The notes below the pieces were generated by a model that saw only the letters and a list, made by a program, of their open reading frames with translations, did not search any database and was not told the origin of the DNA. Made by a program: the position numbers and the translations under genes. A stretch of DNA of 43,963 nt from Candidatus Saccharimonadota bacterium (GTDB lineage Bacteria; Patescibacteriota; Saccharimonadia; Saccharimonadales; Saccharimonadaceae), in assembly GCA_017548735.1 (NCBI GenBank), contig JAFYZJ010000013.1, forward strand, positions 1-43,963, written 5' to 3'. Below, in pieces: positions 3,530 through 42,434 of this stretch; positions within the stretch are counted from its first letter, which is position 1, and each line of letters begins with the position of its first letter.

Positions 3530-5257
3530 GTGGAAAGATTTCAGCCATTAGAGAGCGTTGAGGATGTCGAGGAGTTTTACTCGGCGATTAAGCGCGAAAA
3601 AATGACTCATAAGCTCTCGCCAGAGCGCCCTTATTGTTATTGGACGATTGAGACTTACGATAAAAGCAACGGTATCCGCGGCGGCGGCGGCCTAGGCGTG
3701 CTCGCAGCAGATATGCGCCGTGTCGCCGAACAGCTTTCCGTGCCATTTGTGCTCGTCACCCCATTCTATCCATGGGAATCACATCAGCGTATGGAAGACA
3801 TGAAGCAGATTGATTTCCATACTGAGCAGCACTACCGAGATTATGGCTTTGAATTTATCGATACGGTCCGCATTAAGACTTCAACAACTGCTGTCGAGCT
3901 CGAGGTAATTGAAAAACAACTCGGCTCTTCCCGTTTCCTTTGCATCACTGAGCCGAATTTTGGTGAGCTATATTCCGGCGAATCCGGTTCCGATCATCGC
4001 CTCTATCAAGAGGTGGCGCTGGGTTTTGGTGGCTATCAAGCACTCAAGCTCGTCGGTTTGCGCCCAGCCGTCATTCAGCTTAACGAAGTCGCCACTTTCT
4101 TTGCCGCCGTAGCCCGTCTTGATGAGCTTGTGAGCTCCGGCATGGATTTCTATGAGGCAGTAGTCTATACCCGCAAGCACACGCTCTATACGAACCACAC
4201 GCTCGTGCAGGCTGCCGAGGCAAGCTTCAATTATTCCCAGTTCGAGCAGTACGTTTTCCCGAATATCAAGAGCGTCGCAGTCCGTCGCTGGCTCTCGGAT
4301 AAATTCACGAATGGCCGCATTCAACTCTCTACGCCGACCGTTGAGATTGCTGAGCTTCGCAGTGGCGTAAGCAAATTGCACGCACGCGTCGCGAATTACC
4401 ATGATATTAACGGCAATAAGATTAAGTTCAAATCTGTCACGAACGGTATTCATATGCGCACTTGGGTGCTTCCGGAAATCATGGAGTACTTCTACGATAA
4501 GAATATTCTCGATAAGTTCGATTTGCCACCAGAGGAAAAGCTCGAAGAAGCCGTAAATGCGGTTTCCGCTGCCGATATTCGCAAGCTAAAGCTCGCTGGC
4601 CGTAAAAAGCTCAACGAGATCCTCGCAAACCGCACCGATCAGTACGGTAAGCCTGTCCAAATCCCAGAAGAAGCATTACTTTTCGATTTCAAGCGCCGCT
4701 TCGTTGATTACAAGCGCCCATGGTTGCCATTTGAAAACCCGGAGCGCCTTGCCGAGATTCTCGAGCAGAATAATGCGCACTACATCCTTGCTGGCCGCGT
4801 CCATATGGGCGACTACCGCATGTTTGACCGTCTCATGAAGCTTCTTCACCTCATCGATAAGCATCCGGTTTTGCGTGAGCGCGTACATTATTTGCCAGAT
4901 TACGATGAAGAATTAGGCTTCGCACTATCTGTTGGCGCTAATAGCTCCATCAATACGCCGATTGTTGGCCTTGAGGCCTGCGGTACAAGCTGGATGAAGG
5001 ATATTGCCAACCTCGGTCTCCTCATTTCGACCCACGATGGCGGTGTCGCCGATATGCCTTCCGATAACTATCTCAGCATTAAGGGTAAGACTGAAGCCGA
5101 AGAATGCACCGAGCTTTATCGCCAGATGGAAGCCGCCGCTGCTGCATGGAGCAATGATTTTGATCTCGAATATTGGGTCCGCAAGGAATTAGTCGCTTAT
5201 CTTGCGATTATTTCTGGCTCCCGCATGATGAAAGATTATTTGAATTATCTCTTTTAG
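3530..5257 (+). CDS. glgP: alpha-glucan (glycogen/maltodextrin) phosphorylase, GT35 family, short form
   Basis: Motifs seen: GGGGLGVLAAD, TNGIHMRTW, and EACGTSWMK (the PLP-lysine motif, EASGTSxMK-like). GTG start. Confidence 0.8.
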   Translation: MERFQPLESVEDVEEFYSAIKREKMTHKLSPERPYCYWTIETYDKSNGIRGGGGLGVLAADMRRVAEQLSVPFVLVTPFYPWESHQRMEDMKQIDFHTEQHYRDYGFEFIDTVRIKTSTTAVELEVIEKQLGSSRFLCITEPNFGELYSGESGSDHRLYQEVALGFGGYQALKLVGLRPAVIQLNEVATFFAAVARLDELVSSGMDFYEAVVYTRKHTLYTNHTLVQAAEASFNYSQFEQYVFPNIKSVAVRRWLSDKFTNGRIQLSTPTVEIAELRSGVSKLHARVANYHDINGNKIKFKSVTNGIHMRTWVLPEIMEYFYDKNILDKFDLPPEEKLEEAVNAVSAADIRKLKLAGRKKLNEILANRTDQYGKPVQIPEEALLFDFKRRFVDYKRPWLPFENPERLAEILEQNNAHYILAGRVHMGDYRMFDRLMKLLHLIDKHPVLRERVHYLPDYDEELGFALSVGANSSINTPIVGLEACGTSWMKDIANLGLLISTHDGGVADMPSDNYLSIKGKTEAEECTELYRQMEAAAAAWSNDFDLEYWVRKELVAYLAIISGSRMMKDYLNYLF

Positions 5258-5309
5258 TATGCTATACTCTTGACAGAGTCCGTACAGGACTATTTTTAAT
5301 GGAGTAAAT

Positions 5310-5693
5310 ATGGCAACGAAAGTCACCAGAATCAAGGCAAAAGACGACGGTCCAAAGACCAAGTCTGAAGATGCCGAGAAAATTACTCGCAAAGTTAGCG
5401 TCAAGGCTAAGAATAGCGAGAGCAAAAAGACAAAAATCGCCGCTAAAAAGGCCGAGAAAGCTGCCGACAAAGACGCAAAGAAGTCTTTGAAGAAAGCTGA
5501 TGGCAAAGAAAAGAAAGTTGGCTACTTCCGTGGCGCTTTCCGCGAACTTCGCCAGGTCCGCTGGCCAAATCGCAAAGAAACTTGGAAGATGACCCTTTCG
5601 GTTATCATTTATGTCGTCATCCTCGCAGCCGCAATCATGCTGCTCGATGCGCTTCTACAATTAATCTTTAACCAACTCTTGGGAGGAAAATAA
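5310..5693 (+). CDS. secE: preprotein translocase subunit SecE with a Lys-rich N-terminal extension
   Basis: The C-terminal part, FRELRQVRWPNRKETWKMTLSVIIYVVILAAAIMLLD, is a typical SecE core plus TM helix. It lies immediately upstream of nusG. Confidence 0.9.
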   Translation: MATKVTRIKAKDDGPKTKSEDAEKITRKVSVKAKNSESKKTKIAAKKAEKAADKDAKKSLKKADGKEKKVGYFRGAFRELRQVRWPNRKETWKMTLSVIIYVVILAAAIMLLDALLQLIFNQLLGGK

Positions 5694-5696
5694 TCT

Positions 5697-6248
5697 ATGG
5701 CCGTTAACCGTTATGATGGTACGCGCGCTTGGTACGCTGTGAGCACCTACTCCGGCTACGAAGACAAGGTTGCTGACTCGATTCGCCAGCGCCTCGACAG
5801 TATCGATTTCGCCGACAAGATTTTCGACGTAATGGTACCAAAAGAAAAGCAAATTGATATCAAGAACGGCAAACGCCGTATCGTTGAGAAAAAGATTTTC
5901 CAGGGCTACGTGCTCGTCGAAATGAAGCTCTCCGATGCTACTTGGTATATTATCCGCAACACCCCAGGCGTTACCGGCTTCGTCGGTACTGGCACTCAGC
6001 CAACCCCAGTTTCCAAGAAGGAAATTGAGAAGATCAAGAAGCGCATGGGCGTCGATGATCCAAAGTTTACCGTCAACTACTCTGCTGGCGAGGTCGTCTC
6101 CGTTACCGATGGTCCATTCAAGGGCTTTGAAGGTACGATTTCCGAAATCGACACCAATAAGGGCAAACTCAAGGTTCTCGTCTCCATGTTTGGTCGCGAA
6201 ACCGCTGTCGAGCTTGATGCTCTCCAGGTCAAGAAGATTGACGACTAA
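5697..6248 (+). CDS. nusG: transcription termination/antitermination factor NusG
   Basis: NGN domain motifs (WYAVSTYSGYE, FQGYVLVEM, PGVTGFVG) and a KOW motif (GEVVSVTDGPFKGFEGTI). Confidence 0.95.
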   Translation: MAVNRYDGTRAWYAVSTYSGYEDKVADSIRQRLDSIDFADKIFDVMVPKEKQIDIKNGKRRIVEKKIFQGYVLVEMKLSDATWYIIRNTPGVTGFVGTGTQPTPVSKKEIEKIKKRMGVDDPKFTVNYSAGEVVSVTDGPFKGFEGTISEIDTNKGKLKVLVSMFGRETAVELDALQVKKIDD

Positions 6249-6262
6249 TTAGTCTACCAAAG

Positions 6263-6289
6263 AGCCACCACTCGGTTGGTGGCTTTTTG
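6263..6289 (+). terminator. intrinsic terminator after nusG
   Basis: AGCCACCA / TTGGTGGCT stem followed by TTTTT. Confidence 0.7.
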
Positions 6290-6295
6290 ATGTCC

Positions 6296-6324
6296 TTGAC
6301 TTTTCCGATTGGGGGTGTTATAAT
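6296..6324 (+). promoter_or_regulatory. sigma-70 promoter
   Basis: TTGACT (6296-6301), a 17-nt spacer, then TATAAT (6319-6324). Confidence 0.6.
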
Positions 6325-6354
6325 ATTACTATCTTGTACCTTAGGAGGTTCCGT

Positions 6355-6834
6355 ATGAAACTATATATCTTTAATACCGAGTCGTTATCTTCGCAATACA
6401 GCGAAGCTAGCGACAAGATTATGAAAAAATCGATTGATCTTATCTTAGAAACACTCGGGAATATCAATGATGACGGCGAAACTTTCATTGTTGTAAAAGG
6501 AAAATATAGGCTCGGGTCAGATTTATCTGCGGCCCCAACCGAGTTGTTCTGTACTTATCTCACGAACTACAGAGATACTAGTACTAGCAAAACAAGAAGG
6601 CTCGCGAGGAGACTTGAAGAATTCTTCGCGAATGGTGACAAAAATACAATTCGTATTGCCCCGAATTTCGACGAAGGCGAAGACGTCAGACTCGAAGATC
6701 CATTAGTTTTATTAGATATAACAGTATACTATGAAACTAATCAGAAAGCCGACAAGTTGGGTGGAGTGAGTATCGTTGATTCTATCTATATACAACAGAA
6801 AATCAAGGAAGCTTTCCGCGAAAAGTACGACTAA
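6355..6834 (+). CDS. hypothetical protein (159 aa)
   Basis: ATG at 6355 follows an AGGAGG RBS, with a promoter upstream and a terminator downstream. No recognisable motif. Confidence 0.65.
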   Translation: MKLYIFNTESLSSQYSEASDKIMKKSIDLILETLGNINDDGETFIVVKGKYRLGSDLSAAPTELFCTYLTNYRDTSTSKTRRLARRLEEFFANGDKNTIRIAPNFDEGEDVRLEDPLVLLDITVYYETNQKADKLGGVSIVDSIYIQQKIKEAFREKYD

Positions 6835-6851
6835 CCCCCGTTATCAACAGA

Positions 6852-6876
6852 AAACCCGCTCAATTTGAGCGGGTTT
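6852..6876. terminator. bidirectional intrinsic terminator between convergent genes
   Basis: AAACCCGCTCA / TGAGCGGGTTT stem flanked by an A-run and a T-run. Confidence 0.65.
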
Positions 6877-6883
6877 AATGTTT

Positions 6884-8008
6884 TTACGGTAAACAGTTGC
6901 CGTTGGCGGCAATATTGCGATTGTAATACCTCTCGTCATCGGTAACTTCCTTGATGACTTCAAGATAATCAGGCACAATCAGCTTGTCATCGGGAGATAC
7001 AAATTCTACCTCGAGAATTGCAAACTCGTTAGAGGACGGATAAACATCTATCTCGAGATACTGACCCGAATCGCGCTGCATAATGCAGAATCTGTTCTTG
7101 TGAATCGAGTTCAGCCCCGGGATCGCATTCATCAGTTCGCTGACATATTCTTCGCGACTAATACGACGTTCGAGCTCGATTCTGACGGCCTTGTCGCTCG
7201 TACTACGCTTGATGGTCTTGGTGAAGATAAAGTCTCCGCCGTATGCACGCTGGCGGACACGAACTTCGTCATCAAATAAGTCACCCTTAAGATAGGTCTG
7301 CATAATCTCGCCTTCCTGGCAATTCGGCAGCGCGCGCAGATAGTCGAGATCGGGCATCTTGATCAGATACTTGCGCTCTATTTCATAGGGCATCGGCTCG
7401 CCAAGCATTACAGATATTTGCTTCAACAACGTCTTCAACTTCGTGTCGAGATCGCCTTCGTTCTTAATGATGCGCAGGTGAGGATGGCCAACCCAGGCAT
7501 TCTGCGTCTTCACGTCAAGCTTAACAGCCTCTTCGGGCGTCTCTGAGCGCGCCTCGTTATTCTGCAACGTGTAACACTCAATTGCGCCATCGGCTGTCGT
7601 GACAAGATGAAATACGGCATCATACTCGGCGACTGCGGCAGACACTACCCCGCGTCCAACACGGGTTACGACCTGTTCAAACTCGCGTGGGCTAACATAG
7701 GCCTTATTGTCATATAGGCCGCGGTCGCAAACAATCATGATTTTTTCGTTCTCCATCATGAGTGCCGCCTGCATTATGCGTTCTTCCTTTGCGAGCTGGG
7801 TCTTAAGAATCATCTCCTGAAAATACAGCGGATCCTTGAATGCCGTCGGAATTATTCCCGACGTAATCAGTTCCGTGGCCGCTTCGTTGACTATGAGGAC
7901 CTTCCAGCCGAGCTTCGTATAGAAGTTCGAAATCCAGCTCAATGCCGTTGTTTTACCGCCGCAAGGACCGCCCGTAAGTACAAACTTACAGATTTTTTTG
8001 TTCAGCAA
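6884..8008 (-). CDS. fusion protein: P-loop NTPase (NadR/AAA_28-like nucleoside kinase fold) plus C-terminal CYTH triphosphate-tunnel domain
   Basis: Walker A is GGPCGGKTT near the N-terminus. The C-terminal half begins with YEIERKYL, the ExExK signature of CYTH domains. I place the start at TTG 8008, 6 nt after AGGAGGTG. The longer ORF to 8122 has no RBS. Confidence 0.7.
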   Translation of the reverse strand: MLNKKICKFVLTGGPCGGKTTALSWISNFYTKLGWKVLIVNEAATELITSGIIPTAFKDPLYFQEMILKTQLAKEERIMQAALMMENEKIMIVCDRGLYDNKAYVSPREFEQVVTRVGRGVVSAAVAEYDAVFHLVTTADGAIECYTLQNNEARSETPEEAVKLDVKTQNAWVGHPHLRIIKNEGDLDTKLKTLLKQISVMLGEPMPYEIERKYLIKMPDLDYLRALPNCQEGEIMQTYLKGDLFDDEVRVRQRAYGGDFIFTKTIKRSTSDKAVRIELERRISREEYVSELMNAIPGLNSIHKNRFCIMQRDSGQYLEIDVYPSSNEFAILEVEFVSPDDKLIVPDYLEVIKEVTDDERYYNRNIAANGNCLP

Positions 8009-8113
8009 ATAAATCACCTCCTGTAACCGTTTTAAAGTACATTGGACAATCAATTTCCAATATCTGGATATAGTATAGCATAATTTGCAAAAATATGTTA
8101 TAATTATAGAGAT

Positions 8114-8140
8114 ACTCCTCAAGAGGAGTTTTGTTATTTT
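8114..8140 (+). promoter_or_regulatory. terminator-like hairpin in the leader of the 8179 operon (possible attenuator)
   Basis: ACTCCT-CAAG-AGGAGT stem followed by TTTTGTTATTTT. It sits between a TATAAT at about 8094-8099 and the RBS of the 8179 gene. Confidence 0.3.
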
Positions 8141-8178
8141 ACAATTTTGATTTTACATATGGAAGGAAGTGATGCAAC

Positions 8179-8991
8179 ATGAAGATTCGAGGTATCGAAG
8201 TCGACCCAAACGACTTCTTTGCACAAACGAAGAGGTTTAGGGTTTACCTTGGTAATTCGGACAAAGATGGACCTGTTATTCTGAAAGTCGCCAAGACTTT
8301 TGACGATAACGACGTCCTCAACGAAGATGCGGCGACATTTACTCGCTTAGCTGCGAACAGTCAGGAAATAGACGAGTACGAAACCAGCCTTGGTGGCGGG
8401 AATCGTTCTCGCTTTGACTTACTGTTTGCCAGCCTTTTGTCGACGTTTGTCGAAGCGTCTCAAGGTGACCGAAGGATCAATGTTTACCGCGTGCCAGATA
8501 CGAAGCTCAGCAAATTGCTTCCTCTTTCGAAGCTAAAGGCTGATTACGAAATCGACGCACGCAGCTGTGTCTGGATGATAGGGCGAATCCTGAAGTTTTA
8601 TATCTTGTTCGAGAAGGACAAAATGGATGGAAAAGAGACCGTCGCCAGATACCCGGATTTCTACCCAGAGGATTTCCTCATCGGGCCAGAACGCCACCGC
8701 GTAATCTATTACAACTATTCTGGCGGAGAAGACGACTCGATTGCCGACGGTCATATCAAGGCAATTGCGAAGTTTTTTCTCGAATGGATAGTCGTTAATG
8801 ACGAAGCCGAGCAGAGATTATACAATCTGCTCAAAGATTTTTCAGAACATGGTCGCAGTGAGTTTTACGATGCACACTCCAATCTCTATGCGCTCGCTAG
8901 TGAGCTCTGGGGACGTGGAGTGTATTATCCGTTTACTTACCGCGTCCGCGGAACAATCGCCTGGCAGAAACAGAAAGAGGAGGAAAAATAA
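8179..8991 (+). CDS. hypothetical protein, possibly a protein-kinase-like fold (degenerate)
   Basis: 270 aa with a GGAAGGAAG RBS. VILKVAK resembles a beta3 VAIK lysine. RYPDFYPEDFLIG resembles the HGDxHPxNhh catalytic loop of APH/choline-kinase-type kinases, with substitutions. The stop overlaps the next start (TAATG). Confidence 0.7.
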   Translation: MKIRGIEVDPNDFFAQTKRFRVYLGNSDKDGPVILKVAKTFDDNDVLNEDAATFTRLAANSQEIDEYETSLGGGNRSRFDLLFASLLSTFVEASQGDRRINVYRVPDTKLSKLLPLSKLKADYEIDARSCVWMIGRILKFYILFEKDKMDGKETVARYPDFYPEDFLIGPERHRVIYYNYSGGEDDSIADGHIKAIAKFFLEWIVVNDEAEQRLYNLLKDFSEHGRSEFYDAHSNLYALASELWGRGVYYPFTYRVRGTIAWQKQKEEEK

Positions 8992-10094
8992 TGGGCGACA
9001 CAACATTTTCTAAAAGTGACTACTTAAAGACACGCGAGGATTTAGGCATTACGGACGATAGAGGCGTTACTGCAATGGCAGAGCTAGAAGCCCGCGAATC
9101 CGGTATGCTAAATCCAATTGTTGACCCGGCCATCAATCCGATTCGCCGGTCAATGATAAGGCTAGTAGCCGAAAACAAGCATTGGGTTGCGAAGCTCGGC
9201 TGTCCGATGGATATCGAGGTGAGCTGCGATACTACTGCCTCAATGCAGGACGAAGTCGATAATCAAATGAGGGTTTTGCCCGATATGTATGAGGCAATCG
9301 CTAAAGTTCTTCAGGGATATGACCCGCAGCTTTGCTTGGGTATTTTCGGAGACTGTGTCGACGACTTCGTTTTATGCAGACCGCAATACGAGATGGAGGC
9401 GCCAAAGATTGTCAGATATCTGAATGTAATGGCCCCGCAGCGAGGCGGAGGCGGTAATGGCGGCGAAGATCCTCAGTATTCCATGCTGGCACGCGCTTAT
9501 CTTACAGACGCATATACAAACAACATTGGGCTGAAGGGCTACCATTTCATCATTACCGACGAGCCTTGCCATCACGATATTAGCGAAAGACAAATCAGGC
9601 GTATCTTTGGCGAAAATATCTTTGATAATGAGCTCAAAGAAATGAAGGGCGCAATAAAGTCTATCTACGGCATCGTTAGCGACCTCAAGAGCAAAGTTCA
9701 CGCGTTCGCGCTGATCGTAGACGGTCATTATCATTCAGATGAAGCATACGAATCCTACTGCAATCTTTATGGCAGAAAATCCGTAATCCGCATTGATTCG
9801 ACCGAGATGCTGCCGACGATAATATCGGCGATTATCGGGCTTACCGAAGGTACTGTCGAGATAACAGAGCTGAAAGAACGTTTCGGAGACGATATGGATT
9901 CTGAACTGATCAAGCAGCTCTCCAATATTGAGATCGGCGCACAGATGAAGCTGAGACATGCTATGAAGCGCCCAGTACCAAAGGCCGGTGACATCTTCGC
10001 AAAGAAGGGTGACCTCTGGCCGATTCAGCCGGGTGAACTCTCGGAAGATGAAGAAGCTGAGGAAACGGTAGCTGACATAATCAAGTATCTTTGA
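8991..10094 (+). CDS. von Willebrand factor A (vWA) domain protein with a MIDAS-like motif
   Basis: DIEVSCDTTASM is a DxTxS variant of the DxSxS MIDAS motif. A glycine-rich GGGGNGGED loop follows, then HFIITDEP, which is a TDG-like MIDAS Asp. Extra N- and C-terminal regions are present. The start overlaps the upstream stop by 1 nt. Confidence 0.7.
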   Translation: MGDTTFSKSDYLKTREDLGITDDRGVTAMAELEARESGMLNPIVDPAINPIRRSMIRLVAENKHWVAKLGCPMDIEVSCDTTASMQDEVDNQMRVLPDMYEAIAKVLQGYDPQLCLGIFGDCVDDFVLCRPQYEMEAPKIVRYLNVMAPQRGGGGNGGEDPQYSMLARAYLTDAYTNNIGLKGYHFIITDEPCHHDISERQIRRIFGENIFDNELKEMKGAIKSIYGIVSDLKSKVHAFALIVDGHYHSDEAYESYCNLYGRKSVIRIDSTEMLPTIISAIIGLTEGTVEITELKERFGDDMDSELIKQLSNIEIGAQMKLRHAMKRPVPKAGDIFAKKGDLWPIQPGELSEDEEAEETVADIIKYL

Positions 10095-10116
10095 TACTCG
10101 TTAGGAGGCGAAGGCT

Positions 10117-11367
10117 ATGCTCAATGAAGTCAGTATCGTTACGGACCTCGGTCCGGGTGACGGCGGTAAAGGCAAGGTCGTAAATGTTTTCTGCAACGAA
10201 GATAACATTTCATTAGTCATCAAGCGTGGCGGAGCACAAGGTTCGCACGGTGTTCGCTGTTCCAACGGTGAAAAATTTAATTTTTCCCAGTGGGGCTGTG
10301 GCACTTTCGAAGCAATTCCGACATTTCTGTCGCCACAGTTCATCGTTATGCCTGTTGGCCTAATTAATGAGTCTGAGGCACTGGAGCGCAAAGGAATTAT
10401 TAATCCTTTCCGGCTTCTCAGCTGCGACCCAGATTGTATCTGCGCCACCCCTTTCCACTGGATATCCTCACGATTAAGTGAGCTTCTCCGCGGAAAGAAC
10501 CCGCGCGGCACAATCGGTACTGGCGTTGGCCAGGCCTACCGCATGTTTCAGCAATCTGGAGACGAAATGACAATTCGCGCCCGCGAATTGACTGACCACA
10601 ATAAGATTGCTGATAAACTTTTCGCACAACTCAAATTTTACCGAGCTTGCTATCAATACAAGCCCGAAAATTATCTGGACGAAGACGCGGAACACGTCGC
10701 GGAATGCTTCGATTTGCTTAATGATGACGGCTTCTTGGACTACAACATCAATGAATTTGAGAAAGTAGGCCAAATGCTAAGCATTACATCCTTATCTGAA
10801 GCAATCAACAATCACGACGGTTCTGCTGTAATAGAATGTTCGCACGGTGTTTTAACTGACGCAGTAGAGGGCTTTAAGCCGCACACTAGCGCCATTCGCA
10901 CCCTACCGAAATTCACAGAAGAGATGATGAGAAATGCCGGTTTTACCGGTCGAATTAGGCATTATGCCGTACACCGCGCCTATGAAATTAGGCATGGTGC
11001 TGGCCCAATGTCGACATACGACCCCGAGTTTACCAAACATATGCTTCCTGACAGCCATAAAGCGAATAATCGCTGGCAAGGCGAAGTACGTGCCGGTCCT
11101 CTCGACATCAACCTCATCCAGCATGCCCTCGCGGCATGCAAAGACACGAGTTTCGATGGGTTGTGCCTGACTTGGTTTGACCAGATTCTCGAAATGGGAA
11201 GCTGGAAAATCAACGACGACATTATCCCGATCGACTCCAAACTAACCGGAATAGACCTTTGGCGTTTCGTTGAGAATATCATCGATTCGCGCATTGGTTT
11301 ATCTCTAGAATTACTCTCAATTGGCCCAACAGAGCGCGACAGATTACGCGCCCAAGATTTCATTTAG
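10117..11367 (+). CDS. divergent adenylosuccinate synthetase (PurA)-family protein
   Basis: Colinear with PurA motifs: GPGDGGKGK vs QWGDEGKGK; GGAQGSHG vs GGHNAGH; GTIGTGVGQAY vs GTTGRGIGPAY; YEIRHGAGPMSTYDPEF vs TRVGxGPFPTE. The GTTGRxRRxGW block is replaced by NNRWQGEVRAGPLD. AGGAGG RBS. Confidence 0.75.
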   Translation: MLNEVSIVTDLGPGDGGKGKVVNVFCNEDNISLVIKRGGAQGSHGVRCSNGEKFNFSQWGCGTFEAIPTFLSPQFIVMPVGLINESEALERKGIINPFRLLSCDPDCICATPFHWISSRLSELLRGKNPRGTIGTGVGQAYRMFQQSGDEMTIRARELTDHNKIADKLFAQLKFYRACYQYKPENYLDEDAEHVAECFDLLNDDGFLDYNINEFEKVGQMLSITSLSEAINNHDGSAVIECSHGVLTDAVEGFKPHTSAIRTLPKFTEEMMRNAGFTGRIRHYAVHRAYEIRHGAGPMSTYDPEFTKHMLPDSHKANNRWQGEVRAGPLDINLIQHALAACKDTSFDGLCLTWFDQILEMGSWKINDDIIPIDSKLTGIDLWRFVENIIDSRIGLSLELLSIGPTERDRLRAQDFI

Positions 11368-11378
11368 GAGGTATAGCC

Positions 11379-12635
11379 ATGAGTGAAGAGATTAAGAACA
11401 CAACAGCAGAAGAATCCGTAGTAGAAGTAGTTGCAGCAAACCCTGCAACACCCGATGCTCCGGTCGTAGATGCTACACCGGCACCCGCAATTCCAGCACC
11501 GACACCCACTGCAGCAAGCCCTGTCGAACAGAAGCTTACAGAGTATGGCGCAAACGGTGCCACAATTCAGAAAATTCTCGATCTCGGCGTCGAGTCTGTC
11601 GAAGATTTGTCGACCTTAACCGATAGCGATCTCGTAGACGCTGGCATGAAGCTTGTCAAAGCGCGCAAACTTATCGGCGACCTGAAGGCCGAAGCTAAGC
11701 CCGCAGCGACAACACCGACCGCCGCTTCTGGTTTTGTTTTCCCTAGCGCAATAAATTCAATTCTTCCGTCCGTCCCTACAGACGAAGTCTGGATGAACAG
11801 CCTGAAAACCGGTGGCGTATTGAGAATCGATGATTCTACATATATTGCCGCAATTAAGACAGCATTAGCAGCAAAGGTAGGCTTGTATAATGCGCCTCAG
11901 TTGCTCATAGACGAGATGGAGAGACATGCGAAGGATATTGGCGAGCCTGTAGATGCTGACGTATTCTATAAGCTCGTAAAGATGCTGACAAGACACGATT
12001 ATTCCGACATTTTCGCAGCCATCGATGGCTGCTCTGGAGCGTTCATCAACGACAAGCGTCGTAAAGAATTCCTCCAGGAAATCGATAATCACTTCTTGCC
12101 GGCAATCGCAGCTAGCTACCGCGCCCTCGATAGTTGGTATGAGGGATATAAGGATAGCTTTTCTGATCAAATGATGTTGATGGCCTTTATCGCCGGTGGA
12201 GCGAATTCGGGAATTGGCAGTATGATACAGACGCCGGACACTTCCGTAGTTCGCGCAGCAAGAGATACGTTCGTCGACGAGATTAATAAGACTTTTGCTG
12301 GTTGCGGCGTACAGTCCGCTTCCGCCTTAGCGCTCATCGCAAGAGATATTCTCGGGCAGTTTAACGATAATCGCCTTCCGAAATTGGTTGGCGCCGAAAA
12401 CCGCGAACTCATGCTCAAGAAGCTTGGCCTGGACGTTTCTAGTTCCTACGCGCGCCTCGAGCAGATTCTCTCGCAGTATGTTCTCGCATTTGTGAAGCTG
12501 GATGAAGCAACACCCGATACTGAAGCACGCTATTTGGCAGCGCTTTGGCAGCTCGGTTCTCAGATTGACTGGGAGAGCCTTAATATCAGAAGAAATAAAG
12601 GCTCGAAGAGTATCACAGGCAGTGATATTCTGTAA
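11379..12635 (+). CDS. hypothetical protein: Pro/Ala/Thr-rich N-terminus, HhH-like segment, large alpha-helical domain of unknown function
   Basis: 418 aa with a GGAGG RBS 11 nt after the upstream stop. ATIQKILDLGVESVEDL...DAGMKLVKARKLIGDLK looks like a tandem helix-hairpin-helix. The rest has no recognisable motif. Confidence 0.7.
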   Translation: MSEEIKNTTAEESVVEVVAANPATPDAPVVDATPAPAIPAPTPTAASPVEQKLTEYGANGATIQKILDLGVESVEDLSTLTDSDLVDAGMKLVKARKLIGDLKAEAKPAATTPTAASGFVFPSAINSILPSVPTDEVWMNSLKTGGVLRIDDSTYIAAIKTALAAKVGLYNAPQLLIDEMERHAKDIGEPVDADVFYKLVKMLTRHDYSDIFAAIDGCSGAFINDKRRKEFLQEIDNHFLPAIAASYRALDSWYEGYKDSFSDQMMLMAFIAGGANSGIGSMIQTPDTSVVRAARDTFVDEINKTFAGCGVQSASALALIARDILGQFNDNRLPKLVGAENRELMLKKLGLDVSSSYARLEQILSQYVLAFVKLDEATPDTEARYLAALWQLGSQIDWESLNIRRNKGSKSITGSDIL

Positions 12636-12664
12636 TTTCCAGAGTAAAATCAAAACATAAAAGA

Positions 12665-12690
12665 AGACCCCCAAGTACGGGGGTCTTTTT
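12665..12690. terminator. bidirectional intrinsic terminator
   Basis: AGACCCCC / GGGGGTCT stem flanked by an A-run and a T-run, between convergent genes. Confidence 0.7.
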
Positions 12691-12699
12691 CTTGCCCTT

Positions 12700-13860
12700 T
12701 TATAGCCAAACGTATTTAGCAAAGAGCATTGTGGCGATTTTACGGTATTCATCGTCGTAGAACGGACAATCGCCGTCCATTTCCTTAGGAATGCCATTCC
12801 CTTTCCAATTGTAGAATCTAGCGAATCCCTTGTGGAGCAGACGATACAGCAAAAGATCACTCTCAAGCCTTTCAATGCAGCGACGACGCGCAAACTCGTC
12901 GATATCCTTATATCTAGCAACCACGGCGCGTCGCGCAATCTCCATGCGCTCCTGCGCCTTCGGACCACCCAACCAAACACTATCATAGTAGATATGAATG
13001 CCTTCCGGGCTGCCGGGATAGTATTTCCCGACTACGAGTAAATCGTCGAGCAGATACGGATCGATGTCAGAGTTTACGCTGGCGTAACCCTTTATCAGCG
13101 AACCGTTCACCAACACGACTTTTTCCGGCTCAAGCGAAGACGCGATTTCTTCCAGCCTAGGCATTATGATGTGCAGATTATCAGAGAACGGTCCTTCCAG
13201 CTTCGCGCATGGCGTGAGAGCCACGAATGACTGCCCTTTCTCGTCAAGCCACTTCTTACGGCTTTCTGAGACGTAGAGCGGTTCCTGGCGTGTACGATTG
13301 GGCAAATAGCACAGTATCTCGCGAATTTTCTCAATCCGGTCTTTTTGCTTGATTAGTTTCTGTTCGACGCAGTAGGTCATCACATCTTTGAAACTCTGCA
13401 ACATGATGTAGTTATTTCTGCGACTAGCCCCCTCAATGATTGTCTGGAGCTCATACGCCGAAATGTAGCTATTCTTGAGCAGCCAAGGAGTCAAGTGTGC
13501 AGACTTCGATACTCGCTGTAAACCTTCTTCCGGTCGCGCATCGACTTCGAAACAGTCGCCAAAATGGAAATTTTCCCGCACGTCATAGACATACAAGAGT
13601 TCATACCATGCGTCACGGTATACATCTATAAATTCCCTGGGCGCCGCTTCGAGCGTACTAAGTGGAAGATACAGCGCAAGGCGCCTCGCTTCCGGTTTTC
13701 TCAATAGTTCGGTGCAGGCTTTGTAATAATCGACTCTCTTCGACCCTGAAGGGTCTTTGAGATAATCACAAATCCTCATCGCAGCCGACTTCCTTGGACA
13801 GGAATCCGGCTCGGCCTCTTCGTAACGTGTTTCGATATACGGCTTTAGATAGTTAACCAT
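12700..13860 (-). CDS. Pol-beta-superfamily nucleotidyltransferase domain protein with a large N-terminal domain of unknown function
   Basis: VNGSLIKGYASVNSDIDPYL matches the hG[GS]-x9-13-D-h-D minimal NTase motif. I place the start at ATG 13860 (MVNYLKP) after AGGGGGA. The longer ORF to 14127 would overlap rplK and its promoter. Confidence 0.7.
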   Translation of the reverse strand: MVNYLKPYIETRYEEAEPDSCPRKSAAMRICDYLKDPSGSKRVDYYKACTELLRKPEARRLALYLPLSTLEAAPREFIDVYRDAWYELLYVYDVRENFHFGDCFEVDARPEEGLQRVSKSAHLTPWLLKNSYISAYELQTIIEGASRRNNYIMLQSFKDVMTYCVEQKLIKQKDRIEKIREILCYLPNRTRQEPLYVSESRKKWLDEKGQSFVALTPCAKLEGPFSDNLHIIMPRLEEIASSLEPEKVVLVNGSLIKGYASVNSDIDPYLLDDLLVVGKYYPGSPEGIHIYYDSVWLGGPKAQERMEIARRAVVARYKDIDEFARRRCIERLESDLLLYRLLHKGFARFYNWKGNGIPKEMDGDCPFYDDEYRKIATMLFAKYVWL

Positions 13861-13941
13861 AAAATCCCCCTTTCTTGTAATGTGCAATAGTAATGTTATT
13901 ATGCCATATTTTGCTATTTTTTTCAATGGGGCACCTTCTCC

Positions 13942-13970
13942 TTGCAAAAAACGCCAAAATCCGGTATAAT
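13942..13970 (+). promoter_or_regulatory. consensus sigma-70 promoter of rplK
   Basis: TTGCAA (13942-13947), a 17-nt spacer, then TATAAT (13965-13970). A leader of about 70 nt follows, with ACGAT/ATCGT and GCCGG/CCGGC hairpins. Confidence 0.65.
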
Positions 13971-14047
13971 AGACCGCGTTACGCACGATTATTAATCGTA
14001 ATCGCCGGTGAAGCGCTTCAAAAACCGGCAAAAGGAAAATTAATAAC

Positions 14048-14473
14048 ATGGCAAAACAGGTTATTGGCAACTTGAAGTTGCGCATCCCTGGTGGTAAGGC
14101 GACGGCCGGTCCTCCAGTAGGTAGCACACTCGGTCAGTGGGGTCTCAATATGATGGACTTCATTAACCCATTCAACGAAGCCACCAAAGAATACATGGGC
14201 AAGAATGTGATTGTTCACATCGCTGTCTATGATGATCGCACTTTCGATTGGAAGTGCCTTGGCCAGCCAGTTGACGATTTGATCCGCGAAAAGATCAAGC
14301 TCGAAAAAGGCAGCGGTCGCCCAAACACTGAGAAAGTTGGTAAGATTACCATGGCTCAGATCAAGGAAATCGCAGAAGTCAAGAAAGGTCAGCTCAACGC
14401 TATCGACGAAGCTGGCGCTTGCAAGATTATTGCCGGCACCGCACGCTCGATGGGCGTCGAAGTTGTCGAATAA
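14048..14473 (+). CDS. rplK: 50S ribosomal protein L11
   Basis: LKLRIPGGKATAGPPVGSTLGQWGLNMMDF and full-length colinearity with L11. Confidence 0.95.
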   Translation: MAKQVIGNLKLRIPGGKATAGPPVGSTLGQWGLNMMDFINPFNEATKEYMGKNVIVHIAVYDDRTFDWKCLGQPVDDLIREKIKLEKGSGRPNTEKVGKITMAQIKEIAEVKKGQLNAIDEAGACKIIAGTARSMGVEVVE

Positions 14474-14489
14474 GACACTCTTCAAGAAG

Positions 14490-14517
14490 GCACTCCTTTA
14501 CATAGGGGTGCTTTTTT
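14490..14517 (+). terminator. intrinsic terminator after rplK
   Basis: GCACTCC / GGGGTGC stem (one G-U pair) followed by TTTTTT. Confidence 0.55.
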
Positions 14518-14574
14518 GTTATAATATGCCAATCTGAATCGTCTACGAAATTCTTAGGAAAAGAGGTGGTTTTC

Positions 14575-15258
14575 ATGAAAGGTAGATTGATTGGAGCTCT
14601 TTGGATAATTATAGCTTTGGCTATCTTTTACTTTGGGCTCAATGGCGAATGGTTCCCATTCTTCTTCTGTCTCTGCCTGATGATGTGTTTGGCCGAAATC
14701 TCTGCGATTTCCGACCTCAAGCCATACCAGGTTAAACCGAGTGCATGTAAACCACACGACGCATGGCGATTCGAATACACGATCGTCTACTTCGCTGCGA
14801 TTTTCTGCATTCTCTTAAAGAAAGAAGAGCTTCTCCTTATCATTATCGTCTGTTCATTATCCGATACAGGTGCTTTTACGTTCGGAAAGCTTTTCGGCAA
14901 ACACAAGGCGTGGTTCACGTCAGCAATTTCACCCAACAAGACCATTGAAGGATATATTGGCGGCATCGTTTTTACCCTGCTCGCAATACCGGTTTGTTTC
15001 TTACTAAAGATTGCAATCACACCGGCTTTAATTATCTATTTCCTCCTTGGTGGCTTTGCGGCAGAAATTGGTGACCTACTCGGCTCCGCTACTAAGCGTC
15101 AGCTCCAGGTCAAAGATAGCGGCGACGGGATTCGGAATATGCCCGTCTTTAAGCTAATCGAGTATCCAATCCGTGGTCACGGTGGTTATCTCGATCGAAT
15201 GGACTCGATATCTTTAAATATCGTTCTATTCACCATTATCATGGTGCCGTGGAAGTAA
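14575..15258 (+). CDS. cdsA: phosphatidate cytidylyltransferase (CDP-diglyceride synthase)
   Basis: Multi-TM protein with SDTGAFTFGKLFGKHK...ISPNKTIEGYIGG, the CdsA signature SPxKTxEG. ATG at 14575 follows GAGGTGG. Confidence 0.85.
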   Translation: MKGRLIGALWIIIALAIFYFGLNGEWFPFFFCLCLMMCLAEISAISDLKPYQVKPSACKPHDAWRFEYTIVYFAAIFCILLKKEELLLIIIVCSLSDTGAFTFGKLFGKHKAWFTSAISPNKTIEGYIGGIVFTLLAIPVCFLLKIAITPALIIYFLLGGFAAEIGDLLGSATKRQLQVKDSGDGIRNMPVFKLIEYPIRGHGGYLDRMDSISLNIVLFTIIMVPWK

Positions 15259-41592: not shown

Positions 41593-42354
41593 TTAGATAC
41601 AAGTATAACCGCCGTCGACTGGCAAGATTGCACCAGTGACGTAGCGCGCCTCATCGGATGCGAGGAAGACTGCGGCAGCATCGAGCTCACCCGGCTTGCC
41701 ATAGCGCTGCATTGGAACATGAGTCTTGGCAAATGCCTGGAAGCTTTCCGTATCAAGCACGGCTTTCGTGAGCTCAGTCTCGAAGTAGCCTGGGCAGATT
41801 GCATTGCAAGTAATACCGTCAGTTGCGAGCTCAGCGGCCACGGCGCGCGTAAAGTTCACGACAGCGCCCTTTGAGGCGTGGTAAGCGACTGTATGAATCT
41901 CGGTATTGCCAACGAGGCCATACATCGAAGCGATGTTGATAATGCGGCCATACTTATTCTTCTGCATGATGCGCGCGAAGGCGCGAGTCATCTTGAAGAC
42001 ACTCGTTTCGTCGGTGGCGATGGTGAAATCCCATTCTTCGTCAGTCATGTCGACGACGCCTTTATCTTTGGAGGAACCGGCGCAGTTGAGTAAGATATCA
42101 ACCTTGCCAAATTCTTTTTCGGCAGCCTCAGCAGCGGCATTAATGTCATCAGTGGAGGTGACGTCGCACTTCACTGGCAAAACCTTTACTTTGAATTCCT
42201 TGCGCAATTTTTCGGCAAATTCCTCGAGACGCTCAACGCGGCGAGCGAGAATTACGAGATCAGCACCCTGACGAGCAAAGGCAGTCGCCATTTGAACGCC
42301 GAGGCCGGAGCTGGCACCGGTCACAACTGCTACTTTTCCAGACAAATCAAACAT
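41593..42354 (-). CDS. SDR-family oxidoreductase (FabG / gluconate 5-dehydrogenase-like)
   Basis: TGASSGLG cofactor motif, YHASKGAV catalytic YxxxK and NAICPG. ATG at 42354 follows GGAGGA. Confidence 0.85.
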   Translation of the reverse strand: MFDLSGKVAVVTGASSGLGVQMATAFARQGADLVILARRVERLEEFAEKLRKEFKVKVLPVKCDVTSTDDINAAAEAAEKEFGKVDILLNCAGSSKDKGVVDMTDEEWDFTIATDETSVFKMTRAFARIMQKNKYGRIINIASMYGLVGNTEIHTVAYHASKGAVVNFTRAVAAELATDGITCNAICPGYFETELTKAVLDTESFQAFAKTHVPMQRYGKPGELDAAAVFLASDEARYVTGAILPVDGGYTCI

Positions 42355-42405
42355 TGTTCCTCCATTTTTTTTAACTCTTTTCAGTATAGCCCAATTCTCG
42401 CTAAT

Positions 42406-42434
42406 TTGCAAGCCGCGGCGCCCTGCTTTACAAT
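42406..42434 (+). promoter_or_regulatory. promoter; downstream gene probably leaderless
   Basis: TTGCAA (42406-42411), a 17-nt spacer, then TACAAT (42429-42434). The ATG at 42441 lies 6 nt after the -10. Confidence 0.55.

What the first reader, a model, noticed from the sequence alone, without database searches (positions are those of the whole stretch)
6884..8008. P-loop kinase-CYTH fusion transcribed divergently from the candidate operon
An N-terminal NadR/AAA_28-like P-loop module (GGPCGGKTT) is fused to a C-terminal CYTH domain that starts with the ExExK signature (YEIERKYL). CYTH enzymes act on triphosphorylated substrates as triphosphatases or nucleotide cyclases.

The gene shares a 170-bp control region with the 8179 operon, which suggests co-regulation. 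It could produce or degrade a nucleotide or polyphosphate signal for the neighbouring proteins.
Basis: partly seen in the sequence, partly recalled or inferred. Interest (0 to 1): 0.6.

Follow-up and report, generated by a model that had tools for sequence, protein, structure and literature searches.

The report
Bacterial TTD14-like P-loop–CYTH enzyme gene
This gene really encodes a nucleotide-binding kinase-like domain fused to a triphosphate-cleaving tunnel domain, but it belongs to a large uncharacterised bacterial family related to the insect protein TTD14 and is not a conserved partner of the operon beside it.

Summary
Window 6884-8008 (-) encodes a 374-aa protein with an N-terminal AAA_28 P-loop domain and a C-terminal CYTH/TTM domain. 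AAA_28 scores 72 bits in Pfam, and the best fold matches are the NadR ribosylnicotinamide-kinase domain (Z 16.7 and 16.1). The CYTH domain is below Pfam's cut-off here but matches NeuTTM (family profile E 3.5e-12) and is confirmed by fold. All acidic and basic tunnel residues are conserved across the family.

By the published motif rules it is a phosphohydrolase-type TTM, not a class IV cyclase or a thiamine triphosphatase.

The family is large (5920 cluster representatives), mostly from gut and rumen Bacillota, and about half of the sampled members carry an extra N-terminal HTH. It is a full-length homologue of insect TTD14, a GTP-binding protein whose CYTH domain has lost the metal-binding glutamates.

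The proposed link to the PurA-like operon is not conserved. The operon module occurs in 24 of 59 genus genomes and the fusion family in 9 of 59. They are adjacent only in this genome and a 97%-identical sister. None of the 77 non-Saccharibacteria loci has the operon.

Substrates remain unknown. This is an ordinary, uncharacterised member of a known architecture.

The parts
6884..8008 (-). Coding sequence of the 374-aa P-loop-CYTH fusion protein (stop codon included), with a TTG start.
   Evidence: ORF list and translation. Homologues of 373-377 aa begin at the same position.
8017..8022 (-). Shine-Dalgarno AGGAGG, 8 nt upstream of the TTG start.
   Evidence: Read directly from the sequence.
7445..7987 (-). 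AAA_28 (NadR/Ttd14-type) P-loop kinase-like domain, residues 8-188. Walker A GGPCGGKT is at 7949-7972. The Walker B-like IMIVCDRG motif holds D95 and R96, invariant in A1 and A3 and at least 90% conserved in A2.
   Evidence: Pfam 72 bits. Own-genome scan finds the same coordinates. VIA-align top hits are the NadR RNK domain, 8x7f Z 16.7 and 6gye Z 16.1. Conserved columns.
6899..7393 (-). CYTH / triphosphate tunnel metalloenzyme domain, residues 206-370. ExExK lies at 7370-7384 and ExE (E333, E335) at 7004-7012.
   Evidence: PDB phmmer and family profile to NeuTTM. Foldseek and VIA-align fold matches. Conserved tunnel residues.
6852..6876 (.). GC-rich 11-bp-stem hairpin between the convergent genes 6334-6834 (+) and 6884-8008 (-). 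It is a likely bidirectional terminator, which would make the fusion gene monocistronic.
   Evidence: Terminator scan. A T-run follows on both strands.
8009..8178 (.). The 170-bp intergenic region shared with the divergent gene at 8179. It holds a promoter-like site for the minus strand at 8101..8072 (ATAACA-18-TATACT, 9 of 12 matches).
   Evidence: Consensus scan only, 6 sites found against 3.4 expected. This is not evidence of function.

Best explanation
The gene encodes a soluble, monocistronic, two-domain nucleotide/phosphate-metabolising enzyme of the bacterial TTD14-like family.

**N-terminal domain.** It is a NadR-RNK / thymidylate-kinase-fold P-loop module. It binds a purine NTP. I infer that it transfers the gamma-phosphate to an unidentified small acceptor.

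**C-terminal domain.** It is a catalytically intact triphosphate tunnel metalloenzyme. I predict that it hydrolyses a triphosphate-bearing substrate (inorganic triphosphate or an NTP-like compound) by the two-metal mechanism. I do not expect it to cyclise a nucleotide.

**Coupling of the domains.** A conserved linker (LGEPxP) runs straight into the ExExK strand, so the two sites probably act as one unit.

**Genomic status.** It is an accessory chromosomal gene, patchy among Saccharibacteria and common in gut and rumen Bacillota. It is not a conserved component of the neighbouring PurA-like five-gene module.

**Shown versus inferred.** Shown: domain identities, fold, conservation of catalytic residues, distribution and lack of conserved linkage. 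Inferred: hydrolase activity, kinase activity, donor nucleotide and substrates.
For: **Domains and fold**
- AAA_28 scores 72 bits.
- The family profile matches NeuTTM at E 3.5e-12.
- The AF2 model has pLDDT 90.4 and pTM 0.79.
- Foldseek finds NeuTTM at E 2.7e-9, thymidylate kinases with TMt about 0.7, and AtTTM1 kinase+TTM (7z67) at E 4.9e-8.
- VIA-align finds NadR RNK at Z 16.7 and 16.1, TMPKs at about 15.5, and TTMs at Z 12-13.

**Catalytic residues**
- Invariant or nearly invariant in 35 sequences and 83 sequences: Walker A TGGPCxGK[TS]T, CDRG, E209/E211/K213, R250/R252/R254, K267, E278/E280, K304/R306, E319/D321, E333/E335.
- Linker residues L202, G203, P205 and P207 are invariant.

**Motif rules of Vogt et al. 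2021** (PMC8233210, section 10 read)
- There is no HF six and five residues before the first Glu of ExExK; those positions are G203 and E204.
- Both arginines of xRxR are present, and E248, not an aromatic residue, sits before them.
- ExE is present, not ExA.
- Together these give the TTM hydrolase type.

**Homology to TTD14**
- Insect TTD14 is a full-length homologue at 31-33% identity.
- TTD14 binds GTP through the same Walker A. Its P75L mutation abolishes binding, and P75 corresponds to the invariant P15 here (PMC4624897, passages read).

**Independence from the operon**.

**Monocistronic layout**: own RBS, promoter-like site and hairpin terminator.
Against: - No member of the bacterial family has been assayed, as far as my literature searches show. 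All activities are therefore inferred.
- This protein's own CYTH score is below Pfam's cut-off.
- In the two characterised kinase+TTM proteins (plant TTM1/2 and insect TTD14) the TTM domain is catalytically degenerate and acts as a binding or regulatory module. A regulatory role here cannot be excluded, even though the residues are intact.
- The P-loop domain could be a plain NTPase or sensor rather than a kinase.
- Near-adjacency of fusion and operon recurs in a second lineage. In L037 they lie 1.9 kb apart, which is more than expected for two unrelated genes in a genome of about 0.8 Mb.
- Local co-regulation through the shared 170-bp region in this genome was not tested.
Confidence: 0.65

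Rival explanations
1. One reading: the fusion is co-regulated with the divergent PurA-like/vWA operon. It makes or degrades a nucleotide or polyphosphate signal for those proteins.
For: - The two share a 170-bp divergent intergenic region.
- The same arrangement occurs in G061.
- In L037 the fusion lies 1.9 kb from the operon.
- RNA-library contigs touch both genes, but they do not show transcription.
Against: - The five-gene module is conserved without the fusion. The PurA-like gene is in 24 of 59 genus genomes and the fusion family in 9 of 59, with both in only 5.
- 5 of 5 other operon loci have a different upstream neighbour.
- In G007 the two are 32 kb apart.
- Full-length fusions occur in G044 and G021, where the PurA-like gene was not found at E <= 1e-20.
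- 0 of 77 non-Saccharibacteria loci carry operon homologues.
- In L037 an SPFH gene separates them and the orientation differs.
- G061 is 97% identical, so it is not an independent case.
- PADLOC recognises none of the genes.
Confidence: 0.1
2. The CYTH domain is mainly a phosphate or ligand sensor that gates the P-loop domain, as proposed for plant TTM1 and implied for TTD14. Under this reading the protein is a regulated kinase/NTPase, and in the HTH-fused forms a NadR-like enzyme-repressor, rather than a triphosphatase.
For: - AtTTM1's TTM is inactive and inserts into the kinase acceptor site (PMC9582702, abstract and passages read).
- TTD14 keeps the basic tunnel residues but lacks five acidic ones.
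- 42 of 83 family members carry an N-terminal XRE-type HTH, which recalls the NadR architecture.
- pTM 0.79 suggests a fixed interdomain arrangement.
Against: - Every acidic metal ligand lost in TTD14 and AtTTM1 is at least 90% conserved in the bacterial family. Such conservation is what purifying selection on catalysis would produce.
- Standalone CYTH homologues of the C-terminal half exist in relatives (G068, 44% identity, 185-aa frame).
Confidence: 0.15
3. The enzyme acts on RNA 5' ends. Under this reading the P-loop domain is a polynucleotide kinase and the TTM is an RNA triphosphatase, working in an RNA or tRNA repair or processing pathway.
For: Rare longer homologues are fused to RNA-end enzymes:
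- Tpt1/KptA RNA 2'-phosphotransferase (P0275).
- tRNase Z (P0276, an oomycete).
- THUMP plus methyltransferase (P0280).

TTM is also the fold of the Cet1-type RNA triphosphatases, as stated in the papers read.
Against: - Each fused form is a single sequence on a single contig and may be a gene-calling artefact.
- Other rare fusions point elsewhere: guanylate kinase (P0137) and RelA/SpoT synthetase (P0140).
- The best fold matches of the P-loop domain are small-molecule kinases (NadR RNK, TMPK, dNK). No polynucleotide kinase appears in the 50 rows shown, though an unlisted family is not thereby excluded.
Confidence: 0.05
4. The CYTH domain is a class IV (CyaB-like) nucleotide cyclase that makes a cyclic-nucleotide second messenger.
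For: CyaB-type cyclases share the fold. 2fjt scores Z 11.1.
Against: The three cyclase-specific features of Vogt et al. are all absent:
- There is no HF before ExExK.
- The first Arg of xRxR is retained.
- ExE is present instead of ExA.
Confidence: 0.03

Closest known systems
Drosophila TTD14 (TRPL translocation defect 14; the 'NadR/Ttd14 AAA domain' proteins of invertebrates)
   Same: - It has the same two-domain architecture, a P-loop domain followed by a CYTH-like domain.
- It is a full-length homologue, 31-33% identical to the window's protein in five insect sequences named TTD14. The pairwise E-value with P0277 is 6e-50.
- The Walker A is identical (LTGGPCGGKTT), including the proline whose P75L mutation abolishes GTP binding.
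- CDRG, AWVGHP and the basic tunnel residues are shared.
   Different: - TTD14 lacks E209, E211, E280, E319 and E335, so its CYTH-like domain is probably non-catalytic. The bacterial family keeps all of them.
- TTD14 has N- and C-terminal extensions and acts in channel trafficking in photoreceptors.
- I compared orthologues that the databases name TTD14, not the D. melanogaster protein itself.
NeuTTM (NE1496, PDB 2fbl/3typ) and CthTTM-type inorganic triphosphatases
   Same: - It is the best sequence and fold match for residues 206-370, at 28-29% identity.
- ExExK, RxR, K, ExE and the C-terminal plug-helix motif (DERYYNRNIA against DKRYKNKALA) are shared.
   Different: NeuTTM is a stand-alone protein of about 150 aa. 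Here the domain is welded to a P-loop domain. Substrate specificity has not been tested.
NadR ribosylnicotinamide kinase domain (PDB 8x7f, 6gye)
   Same: - It gives the top structural matches for residues 5-206, at Z 16.7 and 16.1.
- It belongs to the same Pfam family, AAA_28.
- Half of the sampled family also has an N-terminal HTH, as enterobacterial NadR does.
   Different: - There is no NMN adenylyltransferase domain.
- Sequence identity is only 13-14%.
- Thymidylate kinases score within about 1 Z unit, so the acceptor substrate cannot be read from the fold.
- No PnuC was found in the own genome, which is 78.7% complete.
Plant TTM1/TTM2 (PDB 7z67): tandem P-loop kinase + TTM
   Same: It has the same order of domains, kinase then TTM. 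It was recovered by Foldseek at E 4.9e-8 and by VIA-align at Z 10.2 for the TTM part.
   Different: - The plant kinase is of the uridine-cytidine/phosphoribulokinase type (PF00485), not AAA_28.
- Its TTM lacks ExExK and ExE.
- The plant proteins are tail-anchored in the outer mitochondrial membrane.
- The whole-chain superposition is poor (rmsd 21 Å, TMq 0.27), so the domain packing differs.
- The paper calls this tandem plant-unique. The bacterial and invertebrate AAA_28-CYTH family is a separate instance.

Membership tests
CYTH / triphosphate tunnel metalloenzyme superfamily | Eight-stranded beta-barrel tunnel fold | tested here: met
   The AF2 model shows beta strands across residues 209-354. 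Foldseek matches NeuTTM at E 2.7e-9, plus AtTTM3, SaTTM and YgiF. VIA-align gives PH1012 Z 13.0 and NeuTTM Z 12.5.
CYTH / triphosphate tunnel metalloenzyme superfamily | N-terminal ExExK signature | tested here: met
   E209-I-E211-R-K213. E209 and K213 are invariant and E211 is at least 90% conserved in A1. All three are at least 90% conserved in A2.
CYTH / triphosphate tunnel metalloenzyme superfamily | Basic tunnel residues and the C-terminal ExE metal ligands | tested here: met
   R250, R252, R254, K267, K304, R306, E278, E280, E319, D321, E333 and E335 are conserved and align to NeuTTM.
CYTH / triphosphate tunnel metalloenzyme superfamily | Score over Pfam PF01928 gathering threshold | tested here: not met
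   The C-terminal half alone scores 16.5 bits against a cut-off of 23.2. The own-genome scan gives no hit at E <= 0.001. However, 56 of 83 orthologues hit at E <= 0.001 and the family profile hits NeuTTM at E 3.5e-12. This reflects low sensitivity of the model, not a failure of homology.
Class IV (CyaB-like) adenylyl cyclase | HFxxxxExExK, first Arg of xRxR replaced by a small residue, and ExA instead of ExE (Vogt et al. 2021) | tested here: not met
   G203-E204 occupy the HF position. R250 is retained. E333-V-E335 is present.
25-kDa thiamine triphosphatase type | Aromatic residue in W/YxRxR (Vogt et al. 2021) | tested here: not met
   In the profile alignment the position is E248, giving EVRVR. 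In the single-sequence alignment it is R250. It is aromatic in neither.
AAA_28 (NadR/Ttd14 AAA domain) P-loop kinases | Pfam model over threshold, with Walker A and a Walker B-like hhhhD | tested here: met
   72 bits against a cut-off of 27, residues 8-188. GGPCGGKT and IMIVCD are present. 83 of 83 family members hit AAA_28.
NadR (bifunctional NMNAT/RNK) | NMN adenylyltransferase domain plus RNK activity on nicotinamide riboside | tested here: not met
   No CTP_transf_like/NMNAT domain was found in the protein. Only the RNK-like fold is shared. Kinase activity cannot be tested with these tools.
TTD14-like proteins | AAA_28 P-loop domain followed by a CYTH-like domain, homologous over the full length | tested here: met
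   The alignment covers residues 6-367 at E 6e-50 with P0277. P0277 is 57-66% identical to many insect proteins named TTD14. The multiple alignment gives 31-33% identity. The architecture of TTD14 comes from PMC4624897.
Plant TTM1/2 kinase-TTM tandem | PRK/UCK-type kinase (PF00485), degenerate TTM and a C-terminal membrane anchor | tested here: not met
   The kinase domain is AAA_28, with no PF00485 hit. The TTM motifs are intact. The protein ends at residue 374, directly after the plug helix, with no hydrophobic tail.

The most novel reading that the evidence does not exclude
The bacterial TTD14-like proteins may be active, GTP-using kinase-triphosphatase couples. They would act on a guanine-nucleotide or alarmone-type compound, or on a vitamin-like compound taken up by a dedicated ECF transporter. 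The HTH-fused half of the family would then work as NadR-like enzyme-repressors of that uptake. The animal TTD14/UNC-132 proteins would be catalytically dead descendants of this bacterial enzyme.

Leads:
- TTD14 binds GTP and not ATP.
- Rare fusions exist to guanylate kinase and to a RelA/SpoT synthetase domain.
- A borderline HD_4 neighbour occurs in 3 of 80 loci.
- An ECF S-component gene lies directly adjacent, on the same strand, in 9 of 80 loci, all of them HTH forms.
Probability: 0.12. Interest if true: 0.6.

Novelty: new member of a known kind. Interest (0 to 1): 0.3.

Why it matters
The fusion should not be counted as part of the PurA-like module when that module is analysed.

Three smaller points may be useful:
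- This large bacterial family (5920 cluster representatives) is a full-length homologue of the animal trafficking protein TTD14. It keeps the catalytic residues that TTD14 has lost, so a bacterial member would be a tractable model for what the TTD14 fold originally did.
- The CYTH literature I could read treats kinase-TTM tandems as plant-specific. It does not list this family among the multidomain CYTH clusters, perhaps because many members fall under the Pfam CYTH threshold (and the 27 of 83 without a hit).
- The HTH-bearing forms next to ECF S-component genes offer a testable regulator-enzyme-transporter unit.

Tried and rejected
**Searches and checks that gave nothing**
- PADLOC gave no hit for the fusion or for 9 neighbours (0 of 10 proteins). 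There is therefore no support for a known defence system.
- NCBIfam gave nothing meaningful for the fusion; the only row was a 14-bit RecD2 P-loop match.
- Phage records: 1 of 50,697 had a match, to the CYTH half only.
- Plasmid records: 1 of 72,556 had a match, a megaplasmid gene annotated 'AAA family ATPase'. There is no association with mobile elements.
- GC content is even across 1-24 kb (0.43-0.53). The gene sits at about 0.50, so there is no sign of recent transfer.
- Rfam found no riboswitch in the nine loci where an ECF S-component gene abuts the fusion; the 3 hits were RNase P, a Clostridiales sRNA and a tRNA. In window 5000-15000 the only hit was a sub-threshold rsmX match, 30.9 bits against 56. 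This gave no clue to the substrate.
- NCBIfam places the ECF S component below the cut-offs for both the FolT family and RibU. PDB phmmer found nothing for it.
- No PnuC (PF04973) was found in the own genome, which is 78.7% complete.
- PDB phmmer of the operon proteins at 8179, 8991 and 11379 found nothing below E 0.2.
- The Atlas gave only sub-0.8 scores for the 418-aa protein.

**Sequencing runs**
- The DNA holders are animal-gut metagenomes, labelled bovine or sheep where the record says.
- Four RNA-library runs gave nine short contigs of 151-257 nt at about 93-99% identity and low depth.
- These contigs cover 7122-7310 and 7890-8037 of the fusion gene and parts of 8133-8972.
- The tool states that this does not show transcription. 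It cannot rank or link genes, so I draw nothing from it. Uncovered parts mean nothing.

**Phylogeny (quick IQ-TREE, all 83 rows kept)**
- The 77 non-Saccharibacteria rows lie on one side of a 99* branch. The five fusion rows from Saccharibacteria and the 27%-identical G021 paralogue lie on the other side.
- The loci are the 80 best hits to a Saccharibacteria-anchored query and the root is arbitrary, so I make no claim about the direction of transfer.

**Longer fused homologues**
- The extra domains are guanylate kinase, RelA/SpoT, Tpt1, tRNase Z and THUMP-methyltransferase.
- Those listed (all but the guanylate-kinase form, P0137) are singletons, and the fusions point in different directions. 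I keep them as leads only.

**Things not run or not available**
- A CobA-like adenosyltransferase idea (a P-loop enzyme releasing PPPi for the TTM domain) was considered and dropped. No CobA-type chain appears among the 50 rows shown, and the Pfam family is AAA_28.
- Supplements are closed. Table S1 and Figures S7-S8 of Vogt et al. 2021, which may show where AAA_28-fused CYTH sequences fall in their network, were not seen.
- Iyer & Aravind 2002 (PMC138802) is not held. What I say of it rests on citations in other papers.
- The absence of a paper on bacterial AAA_28-CYTH proteins rests on searches of the held library only.
Full report
**What is there.** Window 6884-8008 on the minus strand is an open frame of 374 codons. 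It starts with TTG at 8008, 8 nt downstream of AGGAGG. Homologues of 373-377 aa begin at the same point, so the longer 412-aa frame is not the gene. A GC-rich hairpin at 6852-6876 separates it from the convergent gene at 6334-6834. A weak promoter-like site lies in the 170-bp spacer (8009-8178) before the divergent gene at 8179. The gene therefore looks monocistronic.

**Domains.**
- Pfam finds AAA_28 at residues 8-188 (E 8.5e-20, 72 bits, cut-off 27).
- The CYTH model reaches only 16.5 bits on the C-terminal half, under its cut-off of 23.2. It gives no hit in a scan of the whole genome.
- Homology of the C-terminal half to CYTH is nevertheless solid. phmmer finds the inorganic triphosphatase NeuTTM (3typ/2fbl) at E 2.5e-5 over residues 206-367. 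A profile of 35 family members finds it at E 3.5e-12. 56 of 83 family members hit PF01928 at E <= 0.001.
- An AlphaFold model built on the 35-sequence alignment has pLDDT 90.4 and pTM 0.79.
- Foldseek matches the model's C-terminal half to NeuTTM (E 2.7e-9), AtTTM3, SaTTM and YgiF. It matches the N-terminal half to thymidylate and deoxynucleoside kinases, and also finds the plant kinase+TTM tandem 7z67.
- An exhaustive VIA-align search puts the ribosylnicotinamide-kinase domain of NadR first (8x7f Z 16.7, rmsd 2.6 Å, 175 residues aligned; 6gye Z 16.1). Thymidylate kinases score within about one Z unit. TTM domains score Z 12-13.

**Are the active sites intact?** These motifs are invariant or at least 90% conserved in alignments of 35 and 83 sequences:
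- In the P-loop domain: Walker A (TGGPCxGK[TS]T), CDRG, and several further motifs.
- In the tunnel: E209/E211/K213, R250/R252/R254, K267, E278/E280, K304/R306, E319/D321 and E333/E335.
- The linker L202-G203-x-P205-x-P207, which leads straight into ExExK, is invariant.

Vogt et al. 2021 (PMC8233210, sections 4 and 10 read) give three motifs that separate CYTH activities. Class IV cyclases have HFxxxxExExK, a small residue in place of the first Arg of xRxR, and ExA. Thiamine triphosphatases have W/YxRxR. Here the corresponding residues are G203-E204, E248-V-R250-V-R252 and E333-V-E335. This is the pattern of a phosphohydrolase TTM. That is an inference from sequence rules; nothing was assayed.

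**How big is the family, and who has it?**
- A full scan of 1.84 billion cluster representatives finds 5920 at E <= 0.001 and 1105 at E <= 1e-30. Most of the 150 listed are full-length proteins of about 360-380 aa.
- The 80 best loci are 72 Bacillota, 3 Saccharibacteria, 2 Mycoplasmatota, 2 Bacteroidota and 1 Chloroflexota, largely gut and rumen MAGs.
- 42 of 83 members carry an extra N-terminal XRE-type HTH.
- Names supplied by sources are only 'AAA family ATPase' or 'CYTH domain-containing protein/predicted ATPase'.
- Within the window's own genus the family is patchy: 9 of 59 genomes have a match at E <= 1e-20. Full-length copies occur in G000, G061 (97% identical), G007 and G044. G008 has a copy split over two frames, and G021 has a 27%-identical paralogue.
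- G068 has a stand-alone CYTH frame 44% identical to the C-terminal half. G032 has a P-loop-only frame.
- The fusion is thus neither a ubiquitous housekeeping gene nor lineage-specific.

**Closest characterised relative.**
- A search for longer homologues turned up arthropod 'NadR/Ttd14 AAA domain' proteins that cover 97% of the query. One of them, P0277, aligns to residues 6-367 at E 6e-50. It is 57-66% identical to many insect proteins named TRPL translocation defect protein 14.
- Cerny et al. 2015 (PMC4624897, passages read) describe Drosophila TTD14 as a P-loop domain plus a CYTH-like domain. [quoted passage not shown] Its P75L mutation in Walker A abolishes GTP binding.
- In my alignment of four bacterial and five insect proteins, the Walker A is identical, including that proline (P15 here). 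The basic tunnel residues are shared. The insect proteins lack E209, E211, E280, E319 and E335.
- The bacterial family therefore looks like the catalytically competent form of the TTD14 architecture.
- Plant TTM1/2 (PMC9582702, abstract and passages read) are an analogous kinase+TTM tandem. They differ in having a uridine-cytidine-kinase-type P-loop, an inactive TTM and a membrane anchor. That paper and the network analysis of Vogt et al. list no AAA_28-CYTH cluster.

**Is it tied to the operon at 8179?**
- The four operon genes (270 aa, 367 aa, PurA-like 416 aa, 418 aa) and the convergent 475-aa gene form a module. It is conserved in gene order in all five other genomes I inspected: G001, G017, G007, G022 and G013. 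In none of these is the upstream neighbour the fusion.
- Genus-wide, the PurA-like gene is in 24 of 59 genomes and the fusion family in 9 of 59. Both are present in 5 (G000, G061, G007, G008, G045), where about 3.7 would be expected if they were independent. Related genomes are not independent samples, so I apply no statistical test.
- The two are adjacent and divergent only in G000 and its 97%-identical sister G061. In G007 they lie 32 kb apart. G044 and G021 carry a full-length fusion, but the PurA-like gene was not found there.
- ORFs flanking the fusion in G007, G008, G020, G021 and G032 match no other ORF of the window.
- Among the 80 public loci, only L037, a Saccharibacteria MAG from outside the 59-genome genus set, has the operon within 8 kb. 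There the fusion is on the same strand as the operon, and a 574-aa SPFH/Band-7 gene lies between them and diverges from the operon.
- 0 of the 77 non-Saccharibacteria loci has any operon homologue.
I read it as residual synteny: another window gene, 41593-42411, is also near the fusion in L036 and L037. I cannot exclude a loose link.

**Clues to substrate (leads only).**
- The commonest neighbour is an ECF-transporter S component (PF07155, E 1e-11). It lies directly adjacent on the same strand in 9 of 80 loci, all of them HTH forms, spread over several branches of the tree. Its specificity is not assignable, and no riboswitch accompanies it.
- Other neighbours are rarer: an ABC ATPase in 6 of 80 loci, a VTC/DUF4956/Cthe_2159 trio in 3 of 80 closely related loci, and a borderline HD_4 protein in 3 of 80.
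- Rare fused forms add guanylate kinase, a RelA/SpoT synthetase domain, Tpt1, tRNase Z or THUMP-methyltransferase. All of those listed are single sequences.
- Together with GTP binding by TTD14, these hint at guanine nucleotides or RNA ends, but they do not agree with one another.

**Verdict.**
- The best-supported account is an accessory, self-contained, two-domain enzyme with a NadR/TTD14-type NTP-binding kinase-fold domain coupled to an intact triphosphate-hydrolysing tunnel. It belongs to a large but unassayed bacterial family.
- The proposed partnership with the PurA-like/vWA operon is not supported by comparative genomics. The cyclase alternative is disfavoured by motif criteria.
- The finding is of modest interest: a new member of a known architecture. 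Its main value is the link between an abundant bacterial family and animal TTD14.

Noticed in passing
window 8179-14127: This is a conserved five-gene module: 270 aa, 367 aa, PurA-like 416 aa and 418 aa on the plus strand, with a convergent 475-aa gene.
- Gene order is the same in 5 of 5 other genomes inspected and in L037.
- The PurA-like gene is in 24 of 59 genus genomes.
- The PurA-like protein scores only 62 bits against the adenylosuccinate synthase equivalog (cut-off 402), so it is not a housekeeping PurA.
- The 367-aa protein has Atlas look-alikes at 0.97 in unnamed clusters. The few members with a taxon record include Uroviricota and Minisyncoccota. vWA is only a 0.83 lead.
   Followed up: partly
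L050, L051, L059, L060, L068, L076, L091, L109, L114 (directly beside the fusion gene): In 9 of 80 loci an ECF-transporter S-component gene (PF07155) abuts an HTH-AAA_28-CYTH gene on the same strand, upstream in 3 and downstream in 6. This may be a regulator-enzyme-transporter unit of unknown substrate. No riboswitch was found.
   Followed up: partly
proteins P0137, P0140, P0275, P0276: Rare longer relatives fuse the AAA_28-CYTH module to other domains:
- guanylate kinase (P0137);
- a RelA/SpoT synthetase domain (P0140);
- Tpt1/KptA RNA 2'-phosphotransferase (P0275);
- tRNase Z, in an oomycete (P0276).

P0140, P0275 and P0276 are each a single sequence. The cluster size of P0137 was not looked up.
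   Followed up: partly
G008:C29:302-1400: The fusion homologue in G008 is split over two frames, covering residues 7-314 and 305-374. This is a frameshift, so either a pseudogene or an assembly error, on a 3.1-kb contig.
   Followed up: no
G068:C1:19186-19683; G032:C7:13403-13969: Single-domain relatives exist in related Saccharibacteria. One is a stand-alone CYTH frame of 185 aa, 44% identical to the C-terminal half. The other is a P-loop-only frame of 223 aa, 38% identical to the N-terminal half.
   Followed up: no
L037:9204-10928 (-): A 574-aa SPFH/Band-7 protein gene occupies the position divergent from the PurA-like operon in this Saccharibacteria MAG. In the window, the fusion gene sits in that position.
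   Followed up: no
L082:9175-12949 (also L083, L093, L098 clade): A VTC-domain protein, a DUF4956 membrane protein and a Cthe_2159-domain protein follow the fusion gene in 3 of 80 closely related Lachnospiraceae loci. VTC is itself a polyphosphate-related tunnel fold (recalled, not tested here).
   Followed up: no
window 5310-6248: secE and nusG lie just upstream, but the usual rplK-rplA genes do not follow. Instead come an unassigned 166-aa gene, the fusion and the five-gene module.
   Followed up: no
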